The translations under genes were made by a program, and so were the position numbers. Positions 26,896 through 62,870 of a stretch of 64,000 bases of DNA are shown here, in pieces. Position 1 is the stretch's first letter; each line of letters starts with the position of its first letter. The stretch lies in contig JBMFRC010000009.1 in NCBI GenBank assembly GCA_049968235.1, forward strand, positions 64,001-128,000, written 5' to 3'. Source of the DNA: Candidatus Hydrogenedens sp. (lineage in GTDB: Bacteria; Hydrogenedentota; Hydrogenedentia; Hydrogenedentales; Hydrogenedentaceae). The notes below the pieces were generated by a model. That model was not told where the DNA came from. It ran no database searches and saw only the letters and a list, made by a program, of their open reading frames with translations.

Positions 26896-26979
26896 GGGCG
26901 AGTGGTGGAATAGGAATACACGACGGACTTAAAATCCGTTGGCCGTAAGGCCATGCGGGTTCGATTCCCGCCTCGCCCA
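26896..26979 (+). tRNA. tRNA-Leu (anticodon TAA), type II, CCA not encoded
   Basis: GGGCGAGTGGTGGAATAGG...ACGGACTTAAAATCCGT...GCGGGTTCGATTCCCGCCTCGCCCA followed by a T-run; anticodon loop CUUAAAA. Confidence 0.85.
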
Positions 26980-50794: not shown

Positions 50795-50992
50795 TTATGC
50801 GTAAGGAAGCATCACTTTTACATTTTTTGCTTCTACAGATGAGACCAGTGTAGTCTTTCTCAGGTGTCTCTTCTTCTTTGCTGATTTGGTCGTTTTTAAA
50901 TGCCTATTATAGGCTTTCTTTCTCAAAACCTTCCCGTTTTTAGTAACCTTAAATCTTTTTGATGCACTCTTATTCGTTTTTAATTTTGTCAT
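50795..50992 (-). CDS. rpmI: 50S ribosomal protein L35
   Basis: MTKLKTNKSASKRFKVTKNGKVLRKKAYNRHL. Confidence 0.9.
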   Translation of the reverse strand: MTKLKTNKSASKRFKVTKNGKVLRKKAYNRHLKTTKSAKKKRHLRKTTLVSSVEAKNVKVMLPYA

Positions 50993-51071
50993 GGATTAAC
51001 TCCTTTTTATTTAAACGTATTACAATTAATACATTTCTGGATAAAGAAGTTCCTTTTAGATTTGTCGTCGT

Positions 51072-51608
51072 TTAATTTGATTTGCCCGGACTGAGAGTAA
51101 TAGTTAACGACCTATCCTCAGGACGACAATGTTCGAGCGAGTATGTTTCTGAGCAAAGGTCCTTTGTAGATTCAATAATATTCTTTAGAACTTCGTAGGC
51201 AAATTCGGGGTGTTCATATTCACGACCTCGAAATACCACTGAGACCTTCACCTTATTTCCTTCTTCAAGGAACTCTCGTATATGTTTTAGTTTATATTCG
51301 AAATCATGTTTATCAATTTTCGGTCTTAGTTTTATTTCCTTCAGCACAATTACATGCTGTTTCCTTTTTGCTTCGCGGGCTCTTCTTTTCTGTTCATAAC
51401 GGTATTTACCATAATCCATTATTCTACATACTGGCGGGGTAGCATTGGGTGCTACTTCTACGAGGTCCAGTTCACGCATTTCGGCTTCCCTCAGAGCATC
51501 TCTTTTGCTCATGATACCTAACTGAACCCCTTTATCATCAATTACTCTTACCTGCGGAGCCCTGATTTCTTCATTCACCCGCACCGTGTCTTCAGACGGC
51601 TTTGCTAT
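51072..51608 (-). CDS. infC: Translation initiation factor IF-3, start re-assigned to AUA
   Basis: IF-3 consensus throughout (PVCRIMDYGKY...). An AAGGAG RBS lies 7 nt upstream of an in-frame ATA at 51608; the listed GTG start lies 8 codons inside. Rare AUU/AUA starts are the established autoregulatory feature of infC. Confidence 0.85.
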   Translation of the reverse strand: MAKPSEDTVRVNEEIRAPQVRVIDDKGVQLGIMSKRDALREAEMRELDLVEVAPNATPPVCRIMDYGKYRYEQKRRAREAKRKQHVIVLKEIKLRPKIDKHDFEYKLKHIREFLEEGNKVKVSVVFRGREYEHPEFAYEVLKNIIESTKDLCSETYSLEHCRPEDRSLTITLSPGKSN

Positions 51609-51786
51609 CGTTGTTCTCCTTAATTTATAGTTTTATTTGCCTCAACTTTTGATAAAATTATACTTTAACAGTATACATTTTATCAAATTGAAATTGATAC
51701 TTTGTAATAAGACCGACCAGTCAGACCTGTAACTTGTTTATCCCGGCTGACTTGTCCAACACAAAAACAAAGAAAAGGAGGCCATT

Positions 51787-52887
51787 ATGAAAATATGTGT
51801 TTTAGGTGGATGTGGGGATATGGCAAAAGTCGCCCTCGAATTACTTGCAAAAGAAACAGATGCTACTTCCGTTACCATTGCTGACATCAACATAGAAAAA
51901 GCGAAGCAAATTGCGGAGAATCTCGGAAGCAAGTTCTCCGCAAAATTTGTTAATGCAAAAGACAAATCCTCTATTATAGATGCAGTGAAAGAACATGATG
52001 CCACATTGGGATTTATTGGTCCTTTTTACCTATTTGAAAAAGATATTATTCAAGCATGTCTCGATGCTAAAGTTCCCTATGTTAGTATTTGCGACGATTA
52101 TGATGCGTATCTTTCTGCAATAACCCTGGATAACATTGCAAAAGAGAAAGGCATTACAGTTATTGCCGGATTAGGAAATTCCCCGGGAATAACCAATCTT
52201 TTAGCGAAAAAAGGCTATCTTTCTATGGACAAACCTGAACGCATTGAAATCAACTGGGCGGGCGGTTCTGATGAAGATATTGGACCAGCAAATGTAAAGC
52301 ATGTATTGCATATCTTCAGTGGATATACACTACAATGGCGAGATGGAAAAGAAGTAAGAATTAAAACGGGCACAGAACGGAAAGTAGTGGACTTCCCTGA
52401 ACCTATGGGAAAATTACCGGTCTATATCACGGGACATGCAGAGTCTGTTTCTGTTCCACGCAATTTACCCGGCTTAAAATATGTTTCACTTCACGGAGGA
52501 ATTCACCCACCTTATATTGCCCGATTAGCCACATTTTTAGGTAAACTCGGATTAACAAATACTCCTCAAAAACGAGAAAAACTCACAAAAATTTTACTGC
52601 CTCTTGTTAATATGGGTATTTTCTCTAAAGGCGGTATTGACCAGTCTGTATTTCGCATCGATGTTTACGGTGAAAAAGAGGGAAAAACTGCACACCATTA
52701 TTATTCAGGAGTAGGGCATATCGCTGATATAACAAGCATCCCTGCCGTTGAAGGAGCCCTTATGATAGCCAGAGGAGAACTAAATAAACCCGGCGTTCAT
52801 TCCGCTGAATCAGCTATTGATGATGTAGATGATTTCTTAAATCGTCTTCAGAATCGTGGCGTAAAACTCTTCTATCACGAAGAATAA
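51787..52887 (+). CDS. Saccharopine dehydrogenase-like NAD(P)-binding oxidoreductase
   Basis: MKICVLGGCGDMAKV Rossmann N-terminus; family-typical 366 aa. Confidence 0.65.
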   Translation: MKICVLGGCGDMAKVALELLAKETDATSVTIADINIEKAKQIAENLGSKFSAKFVNAKDKSSIIDAVKEHDATLGFIGPFYLFEKDIIQACLDAKVPYVSICDDYDAYLSAITLDNIAKEKGITVIAGLGNSPGITNLLAKKGYLSMDKPERIEINWAGGSDEDIGPANVKHVLHIFSGYTLQWRDGKEVRIKTGTERKVVDFPEPMGKLPVYITGHAESVSVPRNLPGLKYVSLHGGIHPPYIARLATFLGKLGLTNTPQKREKLTKILLPLVNMGIFSKGGIDQSVFRIDVYGEKEGKTAHHYYSGVGHIADITSIPAVEGALMIARGELNKPGVHSAESAIDDVDDFLNRLQNRGVKLFYHEE

Positions 52888-52964
52888 CATTAAAATTTAT
52901 CTATTCAATGGGTCAAACATATCCAACCTGTCCAACCCATCGAATGTGCTTTATCCGATATTCT

Positions 52965-53648
52965 CTACCTTTCCAATTTTTTATGGGAGAACCACCAATC
53001 GAAACATTCATAACCACCTTCTTTTGCTTTAGATAAACGTTCTTTGGCACTATGGGTATCCGTTGGTGGTGGTATAATCACGCGGTCCTTAATCAATTCA
53101 TTGTTAGGCCAATTTTCAGGCATGGCAACCTTATACTTGTCCGCAATTTGTAACGCCTCTACAATTCGGACAACTTCGTCAATATTTCTACCTACCTCTT
53201 GCGGATAATAAATAATCAACCGTATCCTGGCTTTGTCATCCACAACAAATACTGCACGAACTGTATTCGTACCTTTTCCCGGATGGACCAATCCAAGAGT
53301 ATTAGCAATGGCTCCATTATCTGCAATAATAGGAAATTGAATATCAATTCCTAACTTCTCCCGTATCCATTCTTCCCACTTTATATGTGAGAACACCTGG
53401 TCCATACTTAGACCTATCAATTCGCAATTTAACGTCTTAAACTTATCATACCGTTTTTGAAATGCAACAAACTCTGTGGTGCATACAGGCGTAAAATCCG
53501 CTGGGTGGCTGAACAGAACAAACCACTTTCCTGCAAATGCCTTTGGCAATTCCATTTTCCCATGTGTTGTCATTACATTCATCGCAGGGAACTCATCTCC
53601 TAATAATGGAATCCCTTGTTTTGTCCCTTCAGAACTATTCATAGACAC
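52965..53648 (-). CDS. Peroxiredoxin (1-Cys Prx/Prx6 type)
   Basis: [12 protein letters not shown] peroxidatic-Cys motif. Confidence 0.85.
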
Positions 53649-53698
53649 TCTCCTTTCCTGAAAATAAAGTTAAATGTTACATAACACAATGAAAAATT

Positions 53699-54467
53699 AT
53701 ATGAGACCTCTGAATAAGTCATTCGAGTTAGCTAGTATGTATAAAGATATTATATACGAGAGGGGGTGAAAAAAAAATGAAACGAGATAAGAGAGAAAAG
53801 TGCTATAAATATAGCAGAAGTATTTTGGGTTAAATAACAAAGCAAGGGAAAAATAAAAATGAAGGAAAATCAACGTAGTATGGTAAAAAAGATAGAGCAA
53901 ACAAGTTTTATAGATTACGAGATGTTCCATCAGAAACCGCCTCGTCGTAGATGTTCTTTGAGGCAGATGCAAGAAGTAATACTATGGAAGGAACTTGGGT
54001 AGAGGGCGTATAGGGAGGAGTATATAAGGTGAACAGGGGAGAACGAAGACTTACGTCCTTACTATTTTATGCATTATTGAGCAGTGCGTGATAATGTCTA
54101 TGTGCTTTTGTGGCTATTACATCCAAATCTTTACCTTTTCTTTTCTCAGTATTTTCTTTGGTTGATTATATTTTTTCCCCACTACCAAAGAACACGGAGG
54201 TGCATGGAGGATACGGTGGGGTACAGTGAGACATAGGGAGAGGAGTATATCATTTCTTCTGAATGACTAAATATATTTGAAATGGATGTATGATTAGAGG
54301 TATGCATAGATACAAAAAGATAGAAAACGGACAGAAAAAACAAAATAAATTGATAAAAGTAGAAATACAGACTTTTGTATTTTAATTTCTCATCGGGATT
54401 TTATCTCGTAAAAATATATATAATTTATACCATTACCTCTTACACCACTTTTTCAGAGGTCTCATAT
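53699..54467. other. 769-bp non-coding element bounded by perfect 16-bp terminal inverted repeats (ATATGAGACCTCTGAA / TTCAGAGGTCTCATAT): candidate MITE or large structured ncRNA
   Basis: Left inverted repeat at 53699-53714, right at 54452-54467. No ORF of 60 aa or more on the plus strand. Internal direct repeat TAGGGAG(A)GGAGTATAT at 54011-26 and 54234-50. Confidence 0.5.
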
Positions 54468-55415
54468 CTTTTTTTGGTCCCTCAATGTATTCCGTTCCCA
54501 GAATACTCCATCCACATAGCCTTGAATTGTTCTATCAGAGTTGGCTAATTCTAATCGTTTTTCTGCTAAACAGCAATAAGTTTCGTCGATTTCTACCCCG
54601 CAATATTGCCTTCCTAATTTTTTAGCCACAACACATGTAGTCCCTACACCCGAAAACGGGTCAAATATAAAATCACCTTCTTTTGAACTGGCAAGGATAA
54701 TTTTCGCTACGAGTTTCTCCGGTTTTTGTGTTGGATGGTCTGTATTCTCAGGCATAGACCAGAACGGCACAGTTATATCTGTCCATAAATTAGAAGGATA
54801 TGTAAGCCGATAATTGCCATCGGTTTCTACTTTCCAATCTTTAGGGTTACCTGTTTCATCACGATAAGGTGCAATTACTTTCCGTTTCAGCATTACCGCT
54901 TTGCTATTAAAATAAAATTTATTTGAGACCGTTCCAAACCATATATCTTCCGAACAATTTTTCCAGTTATTCTTCGCACCTCTACCTTTTTCCCGTTCCC
55001 ATGTAATTCGATTTCGCACCTTAAAATATTTTGACATAACTCGATAAATAGCGGAGGAAGATTTCCAATCTCCACAGATATAAATAGAACCTGTCTGCTT
55101 TAATATCTTTCTCAACGGTTTTAACCAGGAATCCATCCATATTTCATACTCTTCCGAAGACATTTCACGAAATTTATTCGAATTAAAGTCTTTATGCAAA
55201 TTATAAGGGGGGTCTATAAATAACAAATCAACAAATGATTCAGGTAAAAAGTCAATAACTTCAAACAAATCTTGATGAAGAATTTTGTTGGTTATCTTCT
55301 CAACCGATACAGGATGGTTAATTCGTAAAATCTGTTTCGTATAAATCGATACTTCTTGTTTTGAGAGGGTTGTTGTCCTATTCCGTCCTGCTTTAAGATG
55401 TTTATCTACTGACAT
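54462..55415 (-). CDS. Orphan beta-class N6-adenine/N4-cytosine DNA methyltransferase
   Basis: DPPY (motif IV) near the N-terminus precedes FDPFSGVGTT (motif I), which is the beta-class order. No adjacent restriction endonuclease; lies 53 bp downstream of the ssrA 3' end. Confidence 0.8.
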   Translation of the reverse strand: MSVDKHLKAGRNRTTTLSKQEVSIYTKQILRINHPVSVEKITNKILHQDLFEVIDFLPESFVDLLFIDPPYNLHKDFNSNKFREMSSEEYEIWMDSWLKPLRKILKQTGSIYICGDWKSSSAIYRVMSKYFKVRNRITWEREKGRGAKNNWKNCSEDIWFGTVSNKFYFNSKAVMLKRKVIAPYRDETGNPKDWKVETDGNYRLTYPSNLWTDITVPFWSMPENTDHPTQKPEKLVAKIILASSKEGDFIFDPFSGVGTTCVVAKKLGRQYCGVEIDETYCCLAEKRLELANSDRTIQGYVDGVFWERNTLRDQKKI

Positions 55416-55468
55416 ACCTACTTTTTTGTAGTCGTATTATATACGAGCAAATCCTTTTTAATAAATAA

Positions 55469-55827
55469 TGGTGGAGGCGGCGGGAATCGAACCCGCGTCC
55501 GAAGATGTTTCAGTGCGGACCTACTACATGCTTAGCCCATCCTTTATAGATTCGCCATTGCGGAGCGCCTCAGGGCGGGCTCACCACAACCGCTATGCGG
55601 GATAGTTACTGCCTTTCAGGCACCGCAAATCCCAAAAGGACAGACCTGCTGGTTGACGCCCCAGTCCGTTAGCAGGCAATCACGGGTGGGACGCGCTGCG
55701 CGTATTAGGCAGCGAGGGCCAATTCTTGATTGGCAGTTGTTTGCGACCGGCTTTTAACGAGGCCAACCGGTCAACCTCGGCATGCATTCCACACCTCAAC
55801 CATCCCCGTCGAAACCTTTTCGCCCCC
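55469..55827 (-). ncRNA. ssrA: tmRNA (ssrA), one-piece; encoded tag ANQELALAA followed by UAA
   Basis: 5' GGGGGCGAAAAGGUUUCGACGGGG..GCAUGCCGAGG..UUGGCCUCGUUAAAAGCCGGUCGCAAAC.., tag ORF GCC AAU CAA GAA UUG GCC CUC GCU GCC UAA, 3' tRNA-like end GGGUUCGAUUCCCGCCGCCUCCACCA. Confidence 0.9.
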
Positions 55828-55970
55828 AGCAACATCCTATTATTCAATTGTTGTATTATATTATACGATATTTGATATCTAAAAATTTACAATAAAGATA
55901 AATTTTTTCAATAATATATTATTCTATTACTTATGTTGTCCCTATCTTTCTGGCTAAGATAAAATTAGAC

Positions 55971-57631
55971 ATGTCGAGAGGAAGTGAAGTAATGAAAAAT
56001 TTCTTCTCAAAAAAATCCTGCAAATCAATCTACTACCCTTTTGGATTCATTTTTTCTATCGTGCTAATTAATACGATTGCAAATAGTGAAGGAAATCAAC
56101 CAACATCTTTATCTACAACAATAGACCCCATTACTCGTTATATTCACATTTCATATACAGTCCCTGCAGGTACACCCGGAGAAAAACAATCTTATGCTCA
56201 TGATCTCCTATGGACAGACAACACATAGTCCTGAAACAAACCCATTACTACACAGGTTATACCGAAAGTAGAATTGATTATATTAAGTTAGTCCCCTTAT
56301 CCACAGAACAGGTACAAATGTTAGAAAGCCAATTTGGAACACCCGACAAAATCGTTGCAGGCTATTTTGAACCTTACTCATGGGCATTCTTCGAGGATAT
56401 ACAGGAAAGCCTGCAACATCGAGAACCTATTTCCACATATAAGGAAGCACGAGTTAATATCGTAGACATCCAGGTGGGTCGCTTCGGCATGAAAGTCGTT
56501 TATGAATCACGCTTAACCGACCAATTTCTTTACAACACTATCGGCGACCCTATCGGCGGTGTTATCCCCCATACAAGTAATGTCGGAAAAATGCAACAAA
56601 TGACCAACACATTACAAACCGAACTCCAATATGCCCACGAATTAGGCTTAACCGCACACGCCAACTTCGGAGCGACCTACTGCTATCCCGACACACCATT
56701 ACAAAGTGATTTTTCAAAACAACACCCCGATTGGATGACGGACGGATTATTGAGATATGACATACCCGAAGTTCGTCAATATATCTTATCCTTACTAAAA
56801 GAGACGCTTGAAATTGGTGCAGATGGCATCTCCATAGATTTTTGTAGGTATCCCGGTGGTATTGACAAACCTGAAACTTGCAATCAATTCCTGCGAGAAC
56901 TCAAAGCACTACGCGAAGAATTTGCAAAAAAACGTGATAAATCCATACCCTTATTACTCCGTTTCCCGGCGGAAGGTGTAAGTCTCTGGAAAAATTTCGA
57001 CTACAACACATGGATTCATGAAGGATTAGTTGATTACCTCTGCCCAAGCAACATCTAGGGCAGACATATGCACTTCGACATCACCCCATACAGCAACGCC
57101 GTTCGTGGCTCAACATGCAAACTACTCCCCGTCATTGATGGATTAAGTTGGGGACTCGAAATACCCGCCCTATTCCTATGGCGTATCCATCAACTCTACC
57201 AGGCAGGCACCGACGGCATTTATGTATACCAATCCGACGCACGCATCTGCACCAATAAACGACCAGAAGACAGACGCTGTATACGACTCATTTCCAGTAG
57301 CGAAGCAGTTCATAACTGGTGGCAACGATACAACAAACAAAATCAACAATTTAGCAAACGCATCTGGATACAACCCTCCGAAGACGGAGACCTCGAATAC
57401 CATAACTGGGAACGCTGTCGAATCTGGGTAGAAGGAATTACCCCTAACGAGGTCCAAATCCTCCTCGATGGACAACTCACCAATACTTATACTCAACCTC
57501 CCTAAATACTTGGCGGAGAAGATTACACCTACGATAACCTTATCACCCCCGGCACACACACCCTCACCATCCACGCCAAAACACAAGACACCACTCTATC
57601 CCAAACTTTCACCATCTCCGGCACAAAATAA
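55971..57631 (+). pseudogene. Disrupted glycoside-hydrolase-like family 10 (GHL10/DUF187) gene: one frameshift (about 56204-56228) and in-frame stops TAG (57056-58) and TAA (57503-05)
   Basis: Four consecutive ORF pieces that together read as one secreted protein (signal peptide ... GADGISIDFCRYPGG ... beta-sandwich C-terminus). Confidence 0.6.
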
Positions 57632-57704
57632 TAAGAACATTTATATTTCCGAACATCTTTCTCCCTTTTAAGAGATGAAACATTTTTTGTTCCTAAATTT
57701 TGTT

Positions 57705-57968
57705 TTATAAGGATAGAATTACACTATTAGAATCTACCCCATATTTATTGAAATATTGGTTTATATCCTTATAATGTTTTATTCGGTGAGGGTCCAAATA
57801 ATACAATTCCCAATGGCTAAGACTATTTATTATATAGTCCATGATTCTTTCATATTCTCTTTCATTCCGAATCACGTGTTCGTAATAATTCCTTTGCCAT
57901 GACTTCCTGTTTTCGTTTTCCAATCCAAAATTCTTATCCCCACATATATAGCCATTTGTTGTCATCAT
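57705..57968 (-). pseudogene. C-terminal fragment of an IS200/IS605-type Y1 (HuH) transposase (RAYT-like)
   Basis: SWQRNYYEHVIRNEREYERIMDYI matches the Y1-transposase C-terminal block (WQ.RFYDHVIRDE....YI.NNP). The HuH/Tyr N-terminal part is absent: only 99 bp remain before the next gene. Confidence 0.55.
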
Positions 57969-58067
57969 CTTAAATCACTGTAATACTTTTGACAGTAATA
58001 CCTACGATGATACTTGTATTGGCAAATCCATGTGTTCACTTTAAATATTAATAACATCTACAGAATT

Positions 58068-59387
58068 TCAAAACTCGAATTTCAGTACCCAGGCGTGTTG
58101 GCATGGGATTTGGGCAGGGGAGACGCAAGGTGTAGTTATAACTATTTGCCCGTATTGGTCTTCCGCATTTACCGGAATGTCTGTGCCGAGTAAGGTTACT
58201 TTGGGCACGGTCTGGAACTCAGCTGGTTTGGGGATGGTCCATGTCTCGGGGGGCCATTTCAACGCTATGGCATATATTGCATTCCCTTTGCGTGTGAAAC
58301 GGAAATTCTCCATCTTCGGTGCATCTTTCCATACATCCGTTCCGTAGATAGCATCACCGTTAACTTCTAACCATTTGCCCATCTCCAACAACCGTTCCTG
58401 CATTATCTCCGGTATGCGTCCATCTGCGGATGGACCTATGTCCAATAGTAGGTTACCACCCCGTGAGACATTATCTATGAGCAGGTGAAGCAATTCCGCG
58501 GTGCTACGGTAATTTTCCGCCGTCTCATTTCGGTTATAACCAAATGACCGACCCATACCCTGGCACTCTTCAAACAGTCCCTTTTCCATCAACGGACCCT
58601 CGGGGATATGTCCATACTCAGGTGTTGCAAAACCTCCATGTATATTACGACAATCTTTGCCCCAGCGGTCATTTACAACGATATCCTTTGGTGCGGGCGA
58701 TTCATTAAACAGCCAAGCTAAAAACTCCGTGCTCCGCCAGACAGAACTCGGATGGTCCCACTCCCCATCAGACCAGAACACATCCGGTTGATAGCGAATA
58801 ATTAAGTCTTTCATCTGCGGTAACATATGTTCCTCTACATAGCGATGTACATCCTGTTTATACAGCGGGTTGAACCATTCATATAATGAGTAGTAAAACC
58901 CGGCTTTAAGTCCAGCATTCTTTACTGCACTGATAAGGTCGCCTGCGAGGTCTCGATGCGGTCCGATGTCCATTGCGTTCCAATTCCAACTTTGCATACT
59001 GGGCCACATACAAAAGCCATCGTGATGTTTGGATGTCAAAACGACATATTTCGCACCCGACCTTTTAAATATATCTGCCCATTGGTTCGGGTCATATAAT
59101 TCTGCTTTGAACATTGGTGCAAAGTCCTGATATTGGAATTTTTCACCATATTTCTCAACATGGAATTTCCATGTGGCACCCTCTTTATTTTGCATGTGAT
59201 TCCAATACCATTCCGAATAAGTTTCCTTGGGTGCCCATGACGGGACGGAATATACCCCCCAGTGAATAAAAATACCAAATTTGGCATCTTCAAACCATTG
59301 CGGATTAGGTCGCTGGTCCAATGATTCCCATGTGGGCTCATAAGCAGTGGCAATAGCGGTCGCAATAACAAAGGATGTTAATAACAT
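58068..59387 (-). CDS. Alpha-L-fucosidase, GH29
   Basis: FGIFIHWGVYSVPSW and EWYWNHM blocks typical of GH29. Confidence 0.8.
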   Translation of the reverse strand: MLLTSFVIATAIATAYEPTWESLDQRPNPQWFEDAKFGIFIHWGVYSVPSWAPKETYSEWYWNHMQNKEGATWKFHVEKYGEKFQYQDFAPMFKAELYDPNQWADIFKRSGAKYVVLTSKHHDGFCMWPSMQSWNWNAMDIGPHRDLAGDLISAVKNAGLKAGFYYSLYEWFNPLYKQDVHRYVEEHMLPQMKDLIIRYQPDVFWSDGEWDHPSSVWRSTEFLAWLFNESPAPKDIVVNDRWGKDCRNIHGGFATPEYGHIPEGPLMEKGLFEECQGMGRSFGYNRNETAENYRSTAELLHLLIDNVSRGGNLLLDIGPSADGRIPEIMQERLLEMGKWLEVNGDAIYGTDVWKDAPKMENFRFTRKGNAIYAIALKWPPETWTIPKPAEFQTVPKVTLLGTDIPVNAEDQYGQIVITTPCVSPAQIPCQHAWVLKFEF

Positions 59388-59412: not shown

Positions 59413-61779
59413 TTATTTTACTTTTAATTCTGTTATAACAATGCTATATGGTGGAATTTCCATTTCAGGGAAGGCTTTCTTATTGATTTTTTCTTCCTTC
59501 AGCCAGACGCCAGGTTCAGTATCAGGCAGGTTAATGGACATTGGGTCTTTGCCCGTGAGTATCCATGCGGTTTTCGGTGGTGTCACCTCCTTGCCTGCTA
59601 CACCTACATGGATATTAATTGCCCTATCCATGGGGTTTACCACAGAGAGAGTTAATATCCCCTCTTGCCCATCTTTCCAGGCAGAGAAAACATCAATTGG
59701 TACCATAGATACCCCTGCCTGATTGCTATCGGATAGCGGTTTTACCTCGACAGCTACAGGCACAGAACCGAAATGCTGACGGTACAGCATCAGGGTAAGC
59801 CCTGTCGTATCAAAGAAAGCAGTTGTTTTGGTAGTTTTAATGGCAGATATTACATTTACAGTCTGGGCATAATTTGCCATCGTTATTACATCACTATTGC
59901 GGAAAAATTCATGCAGACCAATAGCCACGCCTAAGGCATCTTTCAGGTGGTAAACACAACCTAACTCACCATAGACATGGTCGCCATACCAATAGTTCCA
60001 TTCGTCCATTGCAATGGGCACAAATTTCTCCTTTAAAGCAGGTATCGTTTCCAAATAACCTTTATGATTTTTAACTTTGGCTTTTATTCTCTCGGCTAAC
60101 TGGTAAACATGTTCAAGCACATCCTTTTTTTCTCCACAATAAAAGTGTTCACTTATAAAATCCATATTATTTGCACAATTTTCCAGCATTTTCTGGCTCC
60201 AGATACCCATATTTTCGCCTACACCCACTAACTTAATATTCGGGTCAACTGCTTTCATTGCTTGCGCAAATTCATTATGCCTCTTAACATAGTCATCCAC
60301 AGGGATATGTCCCAATTGCCACTCGCCATACATTTCATTGCCAACGCCCCAGTAGGTAATTTTGTATGGTTCGGGGTTGCCATTATCGGCACGCCATTTG
60401 CCCATAGGAGTATCAACTGAGCCATTAGCATATTCGACCATATCACGTGCTAACTGCACATCGCCCAGACCTGTATTAACCACCGCCAACGGTTCTGTTC
60501 CTATTTCTCTACAGAATTGGATAAATTCGTCTATACCAAAATCATTGGTATCAATACCTCCCCAGGCTGGGTTCTTGCGTGTTGGACGTTTATCCGGGTC
60601 TCCAATGCCGTCTTTCCAGTTATAACCACTGACGAAATTGCCACCAGGCCAGCGATAAATGGGCGAATTAAGTTGTCTAAGCAAGGTTAATGTATCCGCT
60701 CTCATCCCTTTGATATTATCTCCAGGCATAAGTGAGACCGCACCAATGAATAGGTTACCCTGCCCTGTAGCAAGAATAGCAAATTGAGCAGGTTTGCCAT
60801 CTTTATCCACTTTCAATCGGAATGTATATTTCTGATAATCCTGTGAAATATTTTGGATAATAGCGGGTTCGCCCAATAAAGTGTCGCCAGAACGAAGGAC
60901 AATTTTAACTATAACATCCGTATGCGTCGATTTTAGCACAATCCTACCCACATATTCCTTACCTGCAACCACTTCTAATCCATCCTGCACCAGCCCCCGT
61001 TCATGCCTCTGATTTAGCAGTATAACAGGCGAATACCAACTCGTATATGGATGAATCTGATCAATAAAGAGCATCATGTCCGATGGGAACAATTTCCATG
61101 GGGAATCGTTGGTGTTGATGAGGTAGAAGAACTTGCGGTCTTCCAGCGTTTCTGCCCAGATACCACCATAAATACAGCGACCTAAATGTTCGATAAATTG
61201 ACCGTAGATAAATGGATGTATCGGAGTGCCTTTCTTTGAGGGGTCGATAGAAATGTTCATATCACCTATCACCATATCTGATATTTTTTCTAATTTTATA
61301 TCATCAAATATGGCGGAACCTTTCGCCAAACCCCAACCCCCAAAAAGGCAATTCACCATAATTCGTGTTTGTGAACCGACAAAAAAGGTAGATTCAACAT
61401 ATTTCCAATCATTCGTTCCGGATAATGCTTCTGTGCGAGCACCATCAATTCCATGAACATTGAGTAATGCACCCACACCATTTTCTAATTGAATGTTATC
61501 TGTTTTAATCCAGCCGGAGAGTTTGTATTGGGCAAATGGGTCAACATCAATTTCATTGAACCAGGATAAATCACCACCTTCGGTGGAAGAAATCTGGACT
61601 GCATTGCCACTTTTCCCCGGTACGGGATATTGGAATTCACCTTTACCCTGCCAGACCCTTGTCTGCCAGTTATCAGGGGCAGTTGAGCCCTGTTCGAAGG
61701 CTTCTTCAAACATGATTTGAGCAAAAACAAAAGGGGTTAAAAGGATAAACATTACGAATATGACTGAGTTTGGTTTCAT
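59413..61779 (-). CDS. GH51 alpha-L-arabinofuranosidase with an N-terminal CBM/galactose-binding-like domain, secreted
   Basis: YRWPGGNFVSGYNWKDGIG is the GH51 signature; signal peptide; N-terminal beta-sandwich of about 170 aa. Confidence 0.75.
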   Translation of the reverse strand: MKPNSVIFVMFILLTPFVFAQIMFEEAFEQGSTAPDNWQTRVWQGKGEFQYPVPGKSGNAVQISSTEGGDLSWFNEIDVDPFAQYKLSGWIKTDNIQLENGVGALLNVHGIDGARTEALSGTNDWKYVESTFFVGSQTRIMVNCLFGGWGLAKGSAIFDDIKLEKISDMVIGDMNISIDPSKKGTPIHPFIYGQFIEHLGRCIYGGIWAETLEDRKFFYLINTNDSPWKLFPSDMMLFIDQIHPYTSWYSPVILLNQRHERGLVQDGLEVVAGKEYVGRIVLKSTHTDVIVKIVLRSGDTLLGEPAIIQNISQDYQKYTFRLKVDKDGKPAQFAILATGQGNLFIGAVSLMPGDNIKGMRADTLTLLRQLNSPIYRWPGGNFVSGYNWKDGIGDPDKRPTRKNPAWGGIDTNDFGIDEFIQFCREIGTEPLAVVNTGLGDVQLARDMVEYANGSVDTPMGKWRADNGNPEPYKITYWGVGNEMYGEWQLGHIPVDDYVKRHNEFAQAMKAVDPNIKLVGVGENMGIWSQKMLENCANNMDFISEHFYCGEKKDVLEHVYQLAERIKAKVKNHKGYLETIPALKEKFVPIAMDEWNYWYGDHVYGELGCVYHLKDALGVAIGLHEFFRNSDVITMANYAQTVNVISAIKTTKTTAFFDTTGLTLMLYRQHFGSVPVAVEVKPLSDSNQAGVSMVPIDVFSAWKDGQEGILTLSVVNPMDRAINIHVGVAGKEVTPPKTAWILTGKDPMSINLPDTEPGVWLKEEKINKKAFPEMEIPPYSIVITELKVK

Positions 61780-61854
61780 ATTTGTTTCTCCATGTTTGGA
61801 TTTAATAATTGTTATGGCAAAAAAGGAAAGATAAATGCAAATAAAGTTGGGGGA

Positions 61855-61884
61855 GAATCGGACGGGTCGGACGGGTCAGACGGG
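61855..61884. repeat. Tandem 9-bp repeat array A (GAATCGGAC GGGTCGGAC GGGTCAGAC...) immediately 5' of tRNA-Pro
   Basis: Visible 9-mer periodicity NRGTCRGAC. Confidence 0.7.
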
Positions 61885-61936
61885 GTGATGGTGAAATTGC
61901 TATTTTTGAGGTAGAATAGATATAATAGTGTTGTTT

Positions 61937-62014
61937 CGGGGCGTAGCGCAGTCCGGCTAGCGCACTTGGTTTGGGTCCAAGGGGTCGCCGGTTCAAATCC
62001 GGCCGCCCCGACCA
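61937..62014 (+). tRNA. tRNA-Pro (anticodon TGG), CCA encoded
   Basis: CGGGGCGTAGCGCAGTCCGGCTAGCGCACTTGGTTTGGGTCCAAGGGGTCGCCGGTTCAAATCCGGCCGCCCCGACCA; anticodon loop UUUGGGU. Confidence 0.85.
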
Positions 62015-62024
62015 TGAAGTTAAA

Positions 62025-62078
62025 GGGTCAGACAAGTCAGACGGGTCGGACAGGTCAGACAAGTCGGACAAGTCGGAC
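62025..62078. repeat. Tandem 9-bp repeat array B (6 copies of NRGTCRGAC) immediately 3' of tRNA-Pro
   Basis: GGGTCAGAC AAGTCAGAC GGGTCGGAC AGGTCAGAC AAGTCGGAC AAGTCGGAC. Confidence 0.75.
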
Positions 62079-62107
62079 GAAAAAACACAAAATAGAAAGG
62101 AAGGGTT

Positions 62108-62698
62108 ATGTCTGATGGGAGGTTAATTCCTCCACATGGGGGCTATCGGAGATTGCGGAGTTTTCAAGTAGCACAGGAGATATATGACGCGACGGTATTG
62201 TTTTGTTAGCGGTTTATTGATAAGAAGTCAAGAACATATGACCAGATGATTCAGGCGAGCAGGAGTGGGGTTCAAAATATTGCAGAAGGGAGTGTGGCGT
62301 CTGCGACATCAAAGAAGATGGAGATTAAGTTGACAGGTGTGGCAAAGGCAAGTTTGGAGGAGTTGTTGCGGGATTATGAGGATTATTTGAGACAACATGG
62401 TTTGAAACAATGGGGTAAGGATTCGCCGGAGGCAGGAAGGATAAGGGAGATGTATAAGTCGGACAGGTTGGACAAGTTAGACGAGGTGGACCCGTCAGAC
62501 AAGTCGGATATTTATGGGATAAGGACAGCGTCGGCAGAGGTTGCGGGGAATACGGTGATTTGTTTGATTCATCAGGCGACATATTTGTTGAGGAAGCAGT
62601 TAGAACGTTTGGAACGGGAGTTTTTGGAGAAGGGTGGTTTTACGGAGCGGATGTATTGGGAACGAAAACGTTGGCGAGAGAGAGAGAAGAAAGAGTAG
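62108..62698 (+). pseudogene. Four-helix-bundle protein (23S rRNA intervening-sequence protein family) with an in-frame TAG at 62207-09 and an in-frame insertion of 9-bp repeats (array C)
   Basis: N-terminus MSDGRLIPPHGGYRRLRSFQVAQEIYDATVLFC-TAG-...SRSGVQNIAEGSVAS...VAKASLEELL matches the 4HB-family blocks (Q..RA..SI..NIAEG, A.GSL.EL). Residues SDRLDKLDEVDPSDKSD are encoded by degenerate GTCGGAC 9-mers. Confidence 0.6.
62456..62509. repeat. 9-bp repeat array C, inside the 4HB coding sequence and in frame
   Basis: AAGTCGGAC AGGTTGGAC AAGTTAGAC GAGGTGGAC CCGTCAGAC AAGTCGGAT. Confidence 0.65.
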
Positions 62699-62733
62699 AG
62701 TCGGACGGGTCGGACGGGTCGGACAAGTCGGAC
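62698..62733. repeat. 9-bp repeat array D at the 3' end of the 4HB gene
   Basis: GAGTCGGAC GGGTCGGAC GGGTCGGAC AAGTCGGAC. Confidence 0.75.
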
Positions 62734-62870
62734 ATTTAAAACAGATAAAAATGAAAAAAAATAAACGAATCAAATTGAAGGCTATACCTCCCGTTAATTT
62801 GCCAGGATAATCCTTCCTATTTTACTATTTGAGTATTCTAATTTTATGAAATTAATAGAAAGGGATTGTC

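What the first reader, a model, noticed from the sequence alone, without database searches (positions are those of the whole stretch)
53699..58067. Decayed accessory island centred on ssrA: orphan methyltransferase, inverted-repeat element, multiply broken GHL10 gene, Y1-transposase stub
tmRNA genes are classic integration targets. On the 3' side of ssrA there is an orphan beta-class DNA methyltransferase 53 bp away with no cognate nuclease, then the inverted-repeat element. On the 5' side there is a secreted GHL10-like gene broken by one frameshift and two in-frame stops, and an 87-aa remnant of an IS200/RAYT-type transposase that lacks its HuH half. No integrase or direct repeat of the ssrA 3' end is visible. 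This suggests an old, eroded insertion rather than an active element.
Basis: partly seen in the sequence, partly recalled or inferred. Interest (0 to 1): 0.5.

Follow-up and report, generated by a model that had tools for sequence, protein, structure and literature searches.

The report
Small independent lesions around tmRNA gene

Summary
All listed features are at the stated coordinates.

- **tmRNA gene:** ssrA at 55469-55827 (-).
- **Methyltransferase:** a beta-class PF01555 enzyme 53 bp downstream of ssrA.
- **Inverted repeat:** 28 nt, bracketing about 730 bp of non-coding DNA.
- **Broken gene:** a secreted-protein gene on the + strand.
- **Transposase stub:** 87 aa, the C-terminal part of a Y1 transposase.

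The single-island reading is only partly supported.

- **Conserved core.** Five related Hydrogenedens lineages (methyltransferase 79-86% identical) keep methyltransferase-peroxiredoxin-saccharopine dehydrogenase. Four of them also keep ssrA directly upstream. The methyltransferase is therefore a fixed, solitary gene. In 40 of 71 informative loci from other lineages its homologues have a nuclease or candidate-nuclease gene downstream.
- **Inverted-repeat element.** It is a 763-bp insertion found only in this lineage. Its ends (TGAGACCTCTGAAWAAGT) are the terminal repeats of a widespread family of miniature transposable elements and of a 1205-bp IS5-family insertion sequence. It has no ORF and no RNA signal.
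- **"GHL10" gene.** It is a pseudogene of an unannotated ~746-aa family. Intact orthologues sit beside ssrA in two relatives, and two others lack the gene.

No integrase or repeat of the ssrA 3' end was found. Interest is low.

The parts
55469..55827 (-). ssrA (tmRNA), tag peptide ANQELALAA
   Evidence: ARAGORN. Rfam RF00023, 200.4 bits, full length 1-374. It is 88-95% identical in nucleotides to ssrA in relatives L010, L012 and L132.
54462..55415 (-). Solitary beta-class DNA methyltransferase (317 aa, DPPY ... FxGxG), full length and apparently intact
   Evidence: PF01555 E=1.9e-43. PADLOC MTase_II E=2.7e-69. Best solved relative is 8urk (E=2.1e-34), which is the orphan enzyme M.BceJIV. Orthologues 79-86% identical sit in the same gene order in relatives.
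53702..54464 (.). 763-bp non-autonomous transposon-like insertion between the methyltransferase and peroxiredoxin. Its first three bases (TGA on the - strand, 54462-54464) now serve as the methyltransferase stop codon.
   Evidence: Relatives have only 65-118 bp between the two genes; the window has 813 bp. No ORF in any frame. No Rfam match even at E<=10. Interior fold z-score about -1 on both strands. No similarity to plasmids or phages.
53702..53719 (+). Terminal inverted repeat, peroxiredoxin-proximal arm: TGAGACCTCTGAATAAGT
   Evidence: The same 18-mer terminates MITEs and a 1205-bp IS5-family element in many phyla.
54447..54464 (-). Terminal inverted repeat, methyltransferase-proximal arm: TGAGACCTCTGAAAAAGT, identical to the family consensus
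52965..53648 (-). 1-Cys-type peroxiredoxin, the conserved downstream neighbour of the methyltransferase
   Evidence: PF00578, PF10417. Synteny in L002-L008 and L013.
55971..57631 (+). Pseudogene of a ~746-aa secreted protein of unknown function ('GHL10-like'). Lesions: 1-nt deletion near 56184; 603-bp deletion with junction at about 56200-56215; TAG at 57056-57058; TAA at 57503-57505.
   Evidence: Three-frame translation. Stop codons. tblastn against the L006 orthologue. Homologues are 700-750 aa and cover 100% of the query across both stops. Junction and ancestral codons CAG and TAC in L132. 1-nt gap.
57705..57968 (-). 87-aa C-terminal fragment of a Y1 (IS200-like / REP-associated) tyrosine transposase; the HUH half is absent
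   Evidence: NF047646 E=9.4e-7, profile positions 98-129 of 146, below cut-off. Residues 2-54 align to the C-terminal ends of 150-290-aa proteins, four of seven of which hit PF01797 positions 63-121 of 121, two of them with E below 0.001 for the matched stretch itself and one above the gathering score. Only 99 bp remain before the fucosidase stop codon, whereas about 290 bp would be needed.
58068..59387 (-). Alpha-L-fucosidase, the conserved flank
   Evidence: PF01120 E=2.3e-128. It is 79-89% identical in nucleotides in L010 and L132.

Best explanation
The region is a plastic neighbourhood of a conserved ssrA locus in a Candidatus Hydrogenedens genome. It records at least four unrelated small events, not one island.

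1. **Methyltransferase.** It is a full-length, solitary descendant of a Type II restriction-modification methyltransferase family. It became fixed directly 3' of ssrA before the sampled Hydrogenedens lineages diverged. It presumably methylates adenine at a short specific site with no restriction partner. That role is inferred.
2. **Inverted-repeat element.** It is a 763-bp non-autonomous transposable element. It carries the 18-nt terminal repeats of an IS5-family insertion sequence and its MITE family. It inserted recently, only in this lineage, immediately after the last sense codon of the methyltransferase gene, and its first three bases now supply the stop codon. It would have been moved in trans by an IS5-type DDE transposase encoded elsewhere. 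That step is inferred.
3. **Gene on the 5' side of ssrA.** It is a dead copy of a conserved ~746-aa secreted protein. It was inactivated by a 1-nt deletion, a 603-bp deletion between imperfect short direct repeats, and two nonsense substitutions.
4. **87-aa ORF.** It is the catalytic-tyrosine half of a Y1 transposase whose HUH half has been deleted. It sits in a slot that holds different cargo in different relatives.
For: **Organism.** The exact methyltransferase sequence is annotated as Candidatus Hydrogenedens sp.. A second assembly contig is 99.98% identical over window 50968-55855.

**Conserved core.**
- Methyltransferase-peroxiredoxin-saccharopine dehydrogenase is kept in L002-L011 and L013. 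L012 keeps the order with a toxin-antitoxin pair in place of peroxiredoxin.
- tmRNA lies directly upstream of the methyltransferase in L006/L008, L010/L011 and L012. The L013 contig starts inside the ssrA 3' end.

**Restriction-modification origin.**
- In 71 metagenome loci with enough downstream sequence, 11 have a 385-aa Type II restriction enzyme downstream (PADLOC REase_II, E=2.7e-147).
- 29 have a conserved ~220-aa partner with only a weak HincII-like hit.
- 31 have neither.
- Neither partner leaves any trace in the window.

**Transposon identity.**
- About 40 of the 125 copies have an inverted partner 69-255 nt away, mostly with 3-bp flanking duplications.
- Four loci have the motif 1205 bp apart around a 325-aa IS5-family transposase: NF033581 at 179.6 bits against a cut-off of 140, plus DUF772 and DDE_Tnp_1.
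- The empty site is seen in L006, L013 and L002.

**Pseudogene.**

**Stub.**

**Variable slots.** L132 has an AbiJ-TIR gene plus a 320-aa gene where the window has the stub. L010 and L012 have fucosidase adjacent to ssrA.
Against: - No second copy of this particular 763-bp element was found. The 26-nt end pattern gave 0 hits in JGI metagenomes.
- Its interior matches neither the 1205-bp insertion sequence nor any other MITE. It is about three times longer than the largest typical MITE of the family (69-255 bp).
- The target-site duplication is ambiguous. TA or ATA/ATAT fits, depending on where the end is drawn.
- No IS5-type transposase is encoded in the 64-kb window.
- The link between the MITEs and the 1205-bp element rests only on the shared 18-mer.
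- Methyltransferase activity and specificity are untested.
- The pseudogene lesions are seen in one assembly only, because the second contig ends at 55855.
- The history of the ssrA-methyltransferase junction cannot be dated without a species tree.
Confidence: 0.75

Rival explanations
1. One reading: everything between peroxiredoxin and fucosidase is one old genomic island that integrated at ssrA and has since lost its integrase, its att repeat and most of its genes.
For: - ssrA is a classic integration target (established knowledge).
- Synteny with the closest right-hand relative, L132, breaks exactly at the ssrA 3' end, at window 55467.
- L010 and L012 have fucosidase directly beside ssrA.
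- The methyltransferase family derives from restriction-modification modules. In one other phylum it sits in an element with a large serine recombinase next to tRNA-Asn.
- A co-oriented tRNA or tmRNA lies within 200 nt upstream in 5 of about 60 informative homologue loci.
Against: - ssrA-methyltransferase-peroxiredoxin-saccharopine dehydrogenase is conserved across lineages down to 79% methyltransferase identity.
- The 5'-side items are on the wrong side of ssrA for tmRNA-targeted integration.
- The broken gene has intact orthologues at the same position. It belongs to a family widespread in Hydrogenedentota and Armatimonadota.
- The transposon-like element is young and separate.
- No integrase and no ssrA 3' repeat were found in the window or in the relatives' flanks.

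A narrower form remains plausible, at roughly 0.35 on my estimate: only the methyltransferase arrived by an ancient integration at the ssrA 3' end. That form is compatible with the best explanation.
Confidence: 0.12
2. The inverted-repeat segment is an invertible DNA switch that flips a promoter in front of peroxiredoxin through a site-specific recombinase encoded elsewhere.
For: - 28-nt inverted repeats bracket 727 bp directly upstream of peroxiredoxin.
- The 12-mer CTCGTATATAAT lies 21 nt upstream of the methyltransferase start. It recurs inside the segment facing peroxiredoxin.
Against: - The repeats are the exact terminal repeats of a transposon family.
- Both available assemblies have the same orientation.
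- None of the genes identified around the locus is a recombinase.
- The 12-mer recurrence is weak: 6 of 100 shuffles give at least 2 matches.
Confidence: 0.04
3. The 730-bp interior encodes a structured non-coding RNA, or is the remnant of the lost restriction enzyme gene.
For: - The composition is strand-asymmetric: A 269, T 211, G 158, C 89 on the + strand.
- The whole segment folds with z=-5.9 on the + strand.
- The segment lies where partner nucleases sit in other lineages.
Against: - The fold signal comes from the terminal repeats. The interior alone gives z of about -1 on both strands, no better than coding controls.
- No Rfam match at E<=10.
- tblastn with both partner families finds nothing there.
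- Relatives have no room for a gene at this site.
Confidence: 0.04
4. The lesions in the broken gene are sequencing or assembly errors and the gene is intact in the organism.
For: The source is a metagenome-assembled genome, and the only other assembly contig stops before the gene. Single-base indels are a common error type.
Against: There are four independent lesions of three kinds: an indel, a 603-bp deletion between imperfect repeats, and two substitutions that create stops. That is unlikely to be error.
Confidence: 0.05

Closest known systems
MITEs derived from IS5-family insertion sequences (non-autonomous elements with terminal inverted repeats and short target duplications)
   Same: The 18-nt terminal repeats are identical or near-identical to those of a multi-copy MITE family, and to those of a 1205-bp element encoding an IS5-family DDE transposase. 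There is no transposase ORF. The insertion is intergenic. A short A/T direct repeat lies at the flanks.
   Different: At 763 bp it is longer than the family's usual 69-255 bp. The interior is unrelated to both the insertion sequence and the other MITEs. No second copy has been found. The target duplication is not clean. The associated transposase is only about 30% identical to annotated IS5-family transposases.
Orphan beta-class adenine methyltransferases such as M.BceJIV (PDB 8URK, recognises GTWWAC), CcrM and YhdJ
   Same: PF01555 fold with beta-class motif order. The best solved match is M.BceJIV at E=2.1e-34, followed by CcrM at 8.5e-26. 8URK is described as an orphan epigenetic regulator in bioRxiv 10.1101/2024.01.20.576384. 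There is no adjacent nuclease, and the gene is conserved within its clade.
   Different: Scores are below the NCBIfam cut-offs for YhdJ (145.6 against 292) and CcrM (114 against 830), so it is an orthologue of neither. Its specificity and any regulatory role are untested. Many close homologues are still paired with nuclease genes.
tmRNA-targeted genomic islands and prophages
   Same: A foreign-type gene (a restriction-modification methyltransferase) lies directly 3' of ssrA. Flanks vary among relatives, and synteny breaks at the ssrA 3' end in L132.
   Different: There is no integrase, no duplicated ssrA 3' end and no clear outer boundary. The 3' neighbour is conserved across the clade.
REP-associated tyrosine transposases (RAYT) / IS200-like Y1 transposases
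   Same: The 87-aa ORF matches the C-terminal region that carries the catalytic tyrosine helix.
   Different: The N-terminal HUH half is missing and there is no room for it. The score is below the family cut-off. Associated REP-type hairpins were not specifically looked for.

Membership tests
tmRNA (Rfam RF00023) | Covariance-model score above gathering, tRNA-like ends and a tag reading frame | tested here: met
   200.4 bits against 47, model positions 1-374. ARAGORN gives tag ANQELALAA*.
Beta-class N6A/N4C DNA methyltransferase (PF01555) | Pfam score above gathering, with the catalytic (D/S)PPY motif N-terminal to the FxGxG AdoMet motif | tested here: met
   149.4 bits against 26.7. FIDPPYN lies near residue 66 and DPFSGVGTT near residue 252.
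Orphan (solitary) methyltransferase | No cognate restriction endonuclease in the genome | tested here: inconclusive
   No adjacent candidate ORF. tblastn with the two partner families recurrent elsewhere finds nothing in 64 kb. The same nuclease-free arrangement holds in five related lineages. The rest of the genome, and unknown nuclease families, could not be searched.
CcrM / YhdJ equivalogs (NCBIfam NF050803, NF008572) | Score above the curated equivalog cut-off | tested here: not met
   114.4 against 830 and 145.6 against 292.
Genomic island integrated at ssrA | Integrase or recombinase gene at one edge | tested here: not met
   The genes from 49.5 to 61.8 kb were identified as hisA-like, L20, L35, IF3, saccharopine dehydrogenase, peroxiredoxin, methyltransferase, the pseudogene, the stub, fucosidase and arabinofuranosidase. 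From 62 to 64 kb there is only a 150-aa ORF without Pfam hits.
Genomic island integrated at ssrA | Direct repeat of the ssrA 3' end marking the far boundary | tested here: not met
   The only other match to the last 60 nt in the window is the T-arm of tRNA-Leu at 26955. None was found in the relatives' flanks.
Genomic island integrated at ssrA | Present or absent as a block among close relatives | tested here: not met
   The components vary independently. The methyltransferase is conserved, the 763-bp element is unique, the pseudogene's orthologue is intact in L006 and L132 but absent in L010 and L012, and the stub is unique.
MITE / non-autonomous IS5-type element | Terminal inverted repeats shared with an autonomous insertion sequence | tested here: met
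   The same 18-mer bounds a 1205-bp element with an IS5-family transposase in L051, L086, L118 and L125. In those copies the inverted repeat extends about 15 nt further out.
MITE / non-autonomous IS5-type element | No transposase coding capacity | tested here: met
   All six frames are closed. tblastn with the IS5-type transposase gives no significant hit.
MITE / non-autonomous IS5-type element | Target-site duplication | tested here: inconclusive
   Most family members show 3-bp duplications. Here the flanks read ...GATA|TGAGACC...GGTCTCA|TATAAT, which is compatible with TA, ATA or ATAT depending on the terminal base.
MITE / non-autonomous IS5-type element | Multiple copies of the same element in a genome | tested here: not met
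   There is one copy in the window. The 26-nt end pattern gave 0 hits in JGI metagenomes. The rest of the host genome was not available. A solo end of the same family lies between ssrA and the methyltransferase in relative L012.
Empty-site test for insertion | Orthologous site without the element in relatives | tested here: met
   The methyltransferase-peroxiredoxin spacer is 65-118 bp in L002, L006, L009 and L013, against 813 bp in the window. Alignment resumes on both sides.
GHL10 (PF02638) | Pfam score above gathering | tested here: not met
   18.3 bits against 27.9, E=0.0014. The L006 orthologue gives no GHL10 hit at E<=1. None of the 120 full-length homologues listed has a precomputed Pfam domain.
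Y1 / REP-associated tyrosine transposase | HUH motif and catalytic-tyrosine region in one ~150-aa domain | tested here: not met
   Only profile positions 98-129 of 146 are matched, at 28.8 bits against a cut-off of 80. Homologues place the stub at their C-terminal ends.
Invertible promoter switch | Both orientations present in a population, and a cognate recombinase | tested here: not met
   The two assemblies share one orientation, and none of the genes identified around the locus is a recombinase. Raw reads were not available.

The most novel reading that the evidence does not exclude
Two modestly novel readings remain open.

(a) The methyltransferase is the domesticated remnant of a Type II restriction-modification module captured at the tmRNA 3' end before this Hydrogenedens clade radiated. 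It would be retained as an epigenetic regulator. Its specificity might resemble GTNNAC, but this rests only on the M.BceJIV match and a weak HincII-like hit in one partner family.

(b) The 763-bp element is a cargo-carrying member of a MITE and IS5 superfamily that spans many phyla. No paper in the full-text library contains the end motif. Its 18-nt ends are invariant from Planctomycetota to Clostridia and candidate phyla.
Probability: 0.3. Interest if true: 0.45.

Novelty: new member of a known kind. Interest (0 to 1): 0.22.

Why it matters
For annotation, the result corrects four calls.

- The methyltransferase is a conserved clade-level gene, not island cargo.
- The "GHL10" gene should be marked as a pseudogene of an unnamed family.
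- The 87-aa ORF is a fragment.
- The 813-bp "intergenic" gap holds a transposon-derived insertion that now supplies a stop codon.

Two by-products have wider use.

- **A searchable end motif.** The 18-nt TGAGACCTCTGAAAAAGT marks a MITE and IS5-type family spread across many bacterial phyla. It breaks assemblies at contig ends.
- **A methyltransferase family with alternative partners.** This highly conserved family (62-75% identity among homologues from several phyla and from metagenomes) is found with either of two downstream partners or alone. That makes it a usable natural series for studying how restriction-modification methyltransferases become solitary.

Tried and rejected
- **Recoding of the in-frame stops.** Rejected. 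They are TAG and TAA, and both are used as normal stops in the window. Orthologues have sense codons there.
- **Known RNA family in the inverted-repeat segment.** Nothing at E<=10. Nothing around 20 other copies of the motif.
- **Structured RNA.** Interior z-scores are about -1. The z=-5.9 is due to the terminal repeat.
- **Similarity of the segment to plasmids or phages.** None.
- **Remnant transposase or restriction enzyme inside the segment.** None.
- **Internal degenerate ends that would indicate two nested MITEs.** None.
- **Other copies in JGI metagenomes.** None with the 26-nt end pattern.
- **Literature search for the end motif.** There was no hit for one strand. For the other strand, the eight papers returned were judged from their titles and abstracts to be unrelated eukaryotic or viral studies.
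- **Repeat of the ssrA 3' end.** None.
- **Universal linkage of the methyltransferase family to tRNA genes.** This was suggested by 3 of 3 early contexts. It fell to 5 of about 60 in a larger sample, which is an enrichment at most.
- **Naming the ~220-aa partner.** Pfam HincII E=0.048 only, no PADLOC hit and no PDB hit, so it stays a candidate nuclease.

Full report
**Source and layout.** The methyltransferase protein is identical to one annotated as Candidatus Hydrogenedens sp.. A 4.9-kb contig of assembly GCA_049971155.1 matches window 50968-55855 at 99.98%. Reading down the - strand, the order is:

- arabinofuranosidase-like gene, 59413-61779
- alpha-L-fucosidase, 58068-59387
- 87-aa ORF, 57705-57968
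- a broken + strand gene, 55971 to about 57631
- ssrA, 55469-55827
- a PF01555 methyltransferase, 54462-55415
- an 813-bp gap
- peroxiredoxin, 52965-53648
- saccharopine dehydrogenase (+ strand), then infC, rpmI, rplT

**Check of the observation.** Each item is present as described.

- The methyltransferase starts 53 bp beyond the ssrA 3' end and has the beta-class motif order.
- The inverted repeat has 28-nt arms, 89% complementary, 727 nt apart. Its 15-nt core is found only at those two sites in the window; with up to 2 mismatches 0.20 matches are expected by chance.
- The + strand gene has stops TAG at 57056 and TAA at 57503 and a 1-nt deletion near 56184.
- The 87-aa ORF matches only the C-terminal third of REP-associated/Y1 transposases.
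- No copy of the ssrA 3' end exists elsewhere in the window, and none of the genes identified from 49.5 to 64 kb is an integrase.

**The methyltransferase is conserved, not cargo.**

- Orthologues 79-86% identical were located on contigs from other samples. In L002-L005, L006-L008, L009-L011 and L013 the order methyltransferase-peroxiredoxin-saccharopine dehydrogenase is kept. L012 keeps methyltransferase and saccharopine dehydrogenase with a nucleotidyltransferase/HEPN pair in place of peroxiredoxin.
- tmRNA lies directly upstream of the methyltransferase in L006/L008, L010/L011 and L012. L013 begins inside the ssrA 3' end.
- The arrangement therefore predates the divergence of these lineages.
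- There are two exceptions. L002-L005 have the methyltransferase without ssrA. L132 has ssrA followed by an RNase H-like gene, with synteny to the window ending exactly at the ssrA 3' end, window 55467. The ssrA 3' junction is therefore a rearrangement point in the clade.

**What kind of methyltransferase.**

- Among the named hits, homologues from Planctomycetota, Elusimicrobiota and a Candidatus Saccharicenans genome are 69-72% identical. Homologues on metagenome contigs range from 62 to 83%.
- The best solved relative is 8urk (E=2.1e-34), the orphan regulator M.BceJIV. CcrM is next. The NCBIfam cut-offs for YhdJ and CcrM are not reached.
- I fetched 80 metagenome loci and clustered the flanking ORFs. 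Of 71 loci with enough downstream sequence, 29 carry a conserved ~220-aa gene, 11 carry a 385-aa gene, and 31 carry neither.
- The 385-aa protein is a Type II restriction enzyme by PADLOC (E=2.7e-147). The 220-aa protein has only a weak HincII-like hit and no PDB relative.
- Neither has any trace in the window.
- The window enzyme is therefore a solitary member of a restriction-modification family.
- Linkage of homologues to tRNA genes looked striking at first but holds for only 5 of about 60 informative loci.

**The inverted-repeat element.**

- Relatives have 65-118 bp between the methyltransferase and peroxiredoxin. The window has 813 bp, and alignments resume on both sides. The segment is therefore an insertion limited to this lineage.
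- It has no ORF, no Rfam match, no unusual folding once the terminal repeat is removed, and no match in plasmids or phages.
By my estimate a pattern this long would give a few tens of chance matches.
- The hits cluster in particular genomes (Brocadiales, Deltaproteobacteria, Planctomycetota and others) and are often about 40 nt from contig ends.
- About 40 of the 125 motif copies have an inverted partner 69-255 nt away, and most such pairs are flanked by 3-bp direct repeats.
- In four loci the motif bounds a 1205-bp element encoding a 325-aa IS5-family transposase. That protein is only about 30% identical to annotated IS5 transposases.
- The window element is therefore best read as a non-autonomous relative of this family.
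- On the methyltransferase strand the junction reads AAG ATA | TGA GAC C. The element's first three bases are the present stop codon. Removing the element with a TA or ATA duplication restores AAG ATA TAA.
- Caveats: the interior is unrelated to other members, no second copy was found, and the duplication is ambiguous.
- A solo end of the same family lies in the ssrA-methyltransferase spacer of relative L012.

**The broken gene.**

- Full-length homologues are 700-750 aa, unannotated and without Pfam domains. The GHL10 hit is below threshold.
- The closest intact orthologue (P0121, 746 aa, 89% identical) lies beside ssrA in L132. Another lies beside ssrA in L006.
- Against these, the window copy has a 1-nt deletion, a 603-bp deletion between imperfect repeats (ATGGTCTCCCATAGGCA and ATGGTGTCCTTTAGACA in L132), CAG to TAG, and TAC to TAA.
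- L010 and L012 lack the gene altogether and have fucosidase next to ssrA.

**The stub.** Residues 2-54 align with the C-terminal ends of 150-290-aa proteins. Four of seven such proteins hit the distal half of PF01797; two have E below 0.001 for the matched stretch itself and one exceeds the gathering score. Only 99 bp separate the stub from the fucosidase stop, so the HUH half is gone. In L132 the same slot holds an AbiJ-TIR gene and a 320-aa gene.

**Verdict.** The single-island interpretation is only partly supported. The evidence fits independent events around a conserved ssrA-methyltransferase-peroxiredoxin core:

- an old fixation of a restriction-modification methyltransferase, possibly through integration at ssrA, though this cannot be shown
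- a recent insertion of an IS5-type non-autonomous element
- pseudogenisation of a conserved gene
- a transposase remnant in a variable slot

All are known kinds of feature, and interest is low.

Noticed in passing
L014-L131 (genome-contig hits); motif also at window 53702-53719 and 54447-54464: The 18-mer TGAGACCTCTGAAAAAGT is conserved exactly across many phyla, including Planctomycetota/Brocadiales, Deltaproteobacteria, Nitrospirae, Thermodesulfobacteria, Clostridia, Bacteroidales, candidate phyla and a Synechococcus genome. It forms the end of 69-255-bp MITEs whose interiors differ. Full-text search found no paper containing it.
   Followed up: partly
L051 863-2067, L086 468-1672, L118 4317-5521, L125 1913-3117: Copies of the 1205-bp IS5-type element have flanks that are inverted repeats of each other but differ between copies (for example AACTCTTTGACA...TGTCAAAGAGTT). 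It looks as if the element inserts into the centre of palindromic targets. Many MITE copies also have TTGTCAA about 12 nt outside the end.
   Followed up: no
L146 1371-2042 and 28 other loci; L147 2837-3994 and 10 other loci: The methyltransferase family has two alternative conserved downstream partners. One is a ~220-aa protein with no family assignment (a YYVIDVKTH motif and a weak HincII hit). The other is a 385-aa PADLOC Type II restriction enzyme.
   Followed up: partly
L009 3367-7863, L010 5105-9601, L011 4030-8526, L012 5237-8531: Several relatives carry cas9, cas1 and cas2 (L012 is cut off just after cas9) between saccharopine dehydrogenase and infC. The window has none there. The same relatives (L009-L011) have peroxiredoxin reduced to a 64-aa fragment.
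   Followed up: no
L012 1053-2040: The ssrA-methyltransferase spacer is about 1 kb in this relative. It is filled with nested inverted repeats of a CCACAGAGGACACGGAGA-type motif plus one solo TGAGACC-type end. The same locus has a nucleotidyltransferase/HEPN pair where peroxiredoxin normally sits.
   Followed up: no
L132 8398-9465 and 12244-14820: In the closest relative for the right half of the locus, ssrA is followed by an RNase H-like gene instead of the methyltransferase. An AbiJ-TIR defence-type gene occupies the slot that holds the transposase stub in the window.
   Followed up: partly
L134 4822-8683; L135 4894-6038; L137 5001-6086; L145, L159, L185: Some methyltransferase homologues lie within 15-165 nt of a tRNA gene. 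One lies in an element with an excisionase-like gene, the 386-aa nuclease and a large serine recombinase abutting tRNA-Asn. This hints that the module travels on tRNA-targeting elements.
   Followed up: partly
window 53749-53760 and 55436-55447 (- strand): The 12-mer CTCGTATATAAT, which contains a perfect TATAAT, occurs 21 nt upstream of the methyltransferase start. It occurs again inside the inserted element about 100 nt upstream of peroxiredoxin, facing it. This is only weakly non-random: 6 of 100 shuffles give at least 2 matches.
   Followed up: partly
window 61800-62800: Immediately after tRNA-Pro (61937-62014) the + strand becomes strongly G-rich, with GC skew up to +0.49. It encodes a 150-aa ORF (62246-62698) without Pfam hits. 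The reverse frames give SDLSDPSD-type repeats.
   Followed up: no
window 55417-55442 and 55836-55861: A 26-nt direct repeat, 73% identical, brackets ssrA. It is probably chance or shared promoter-like AT-rich sequence.
   Followed up: no
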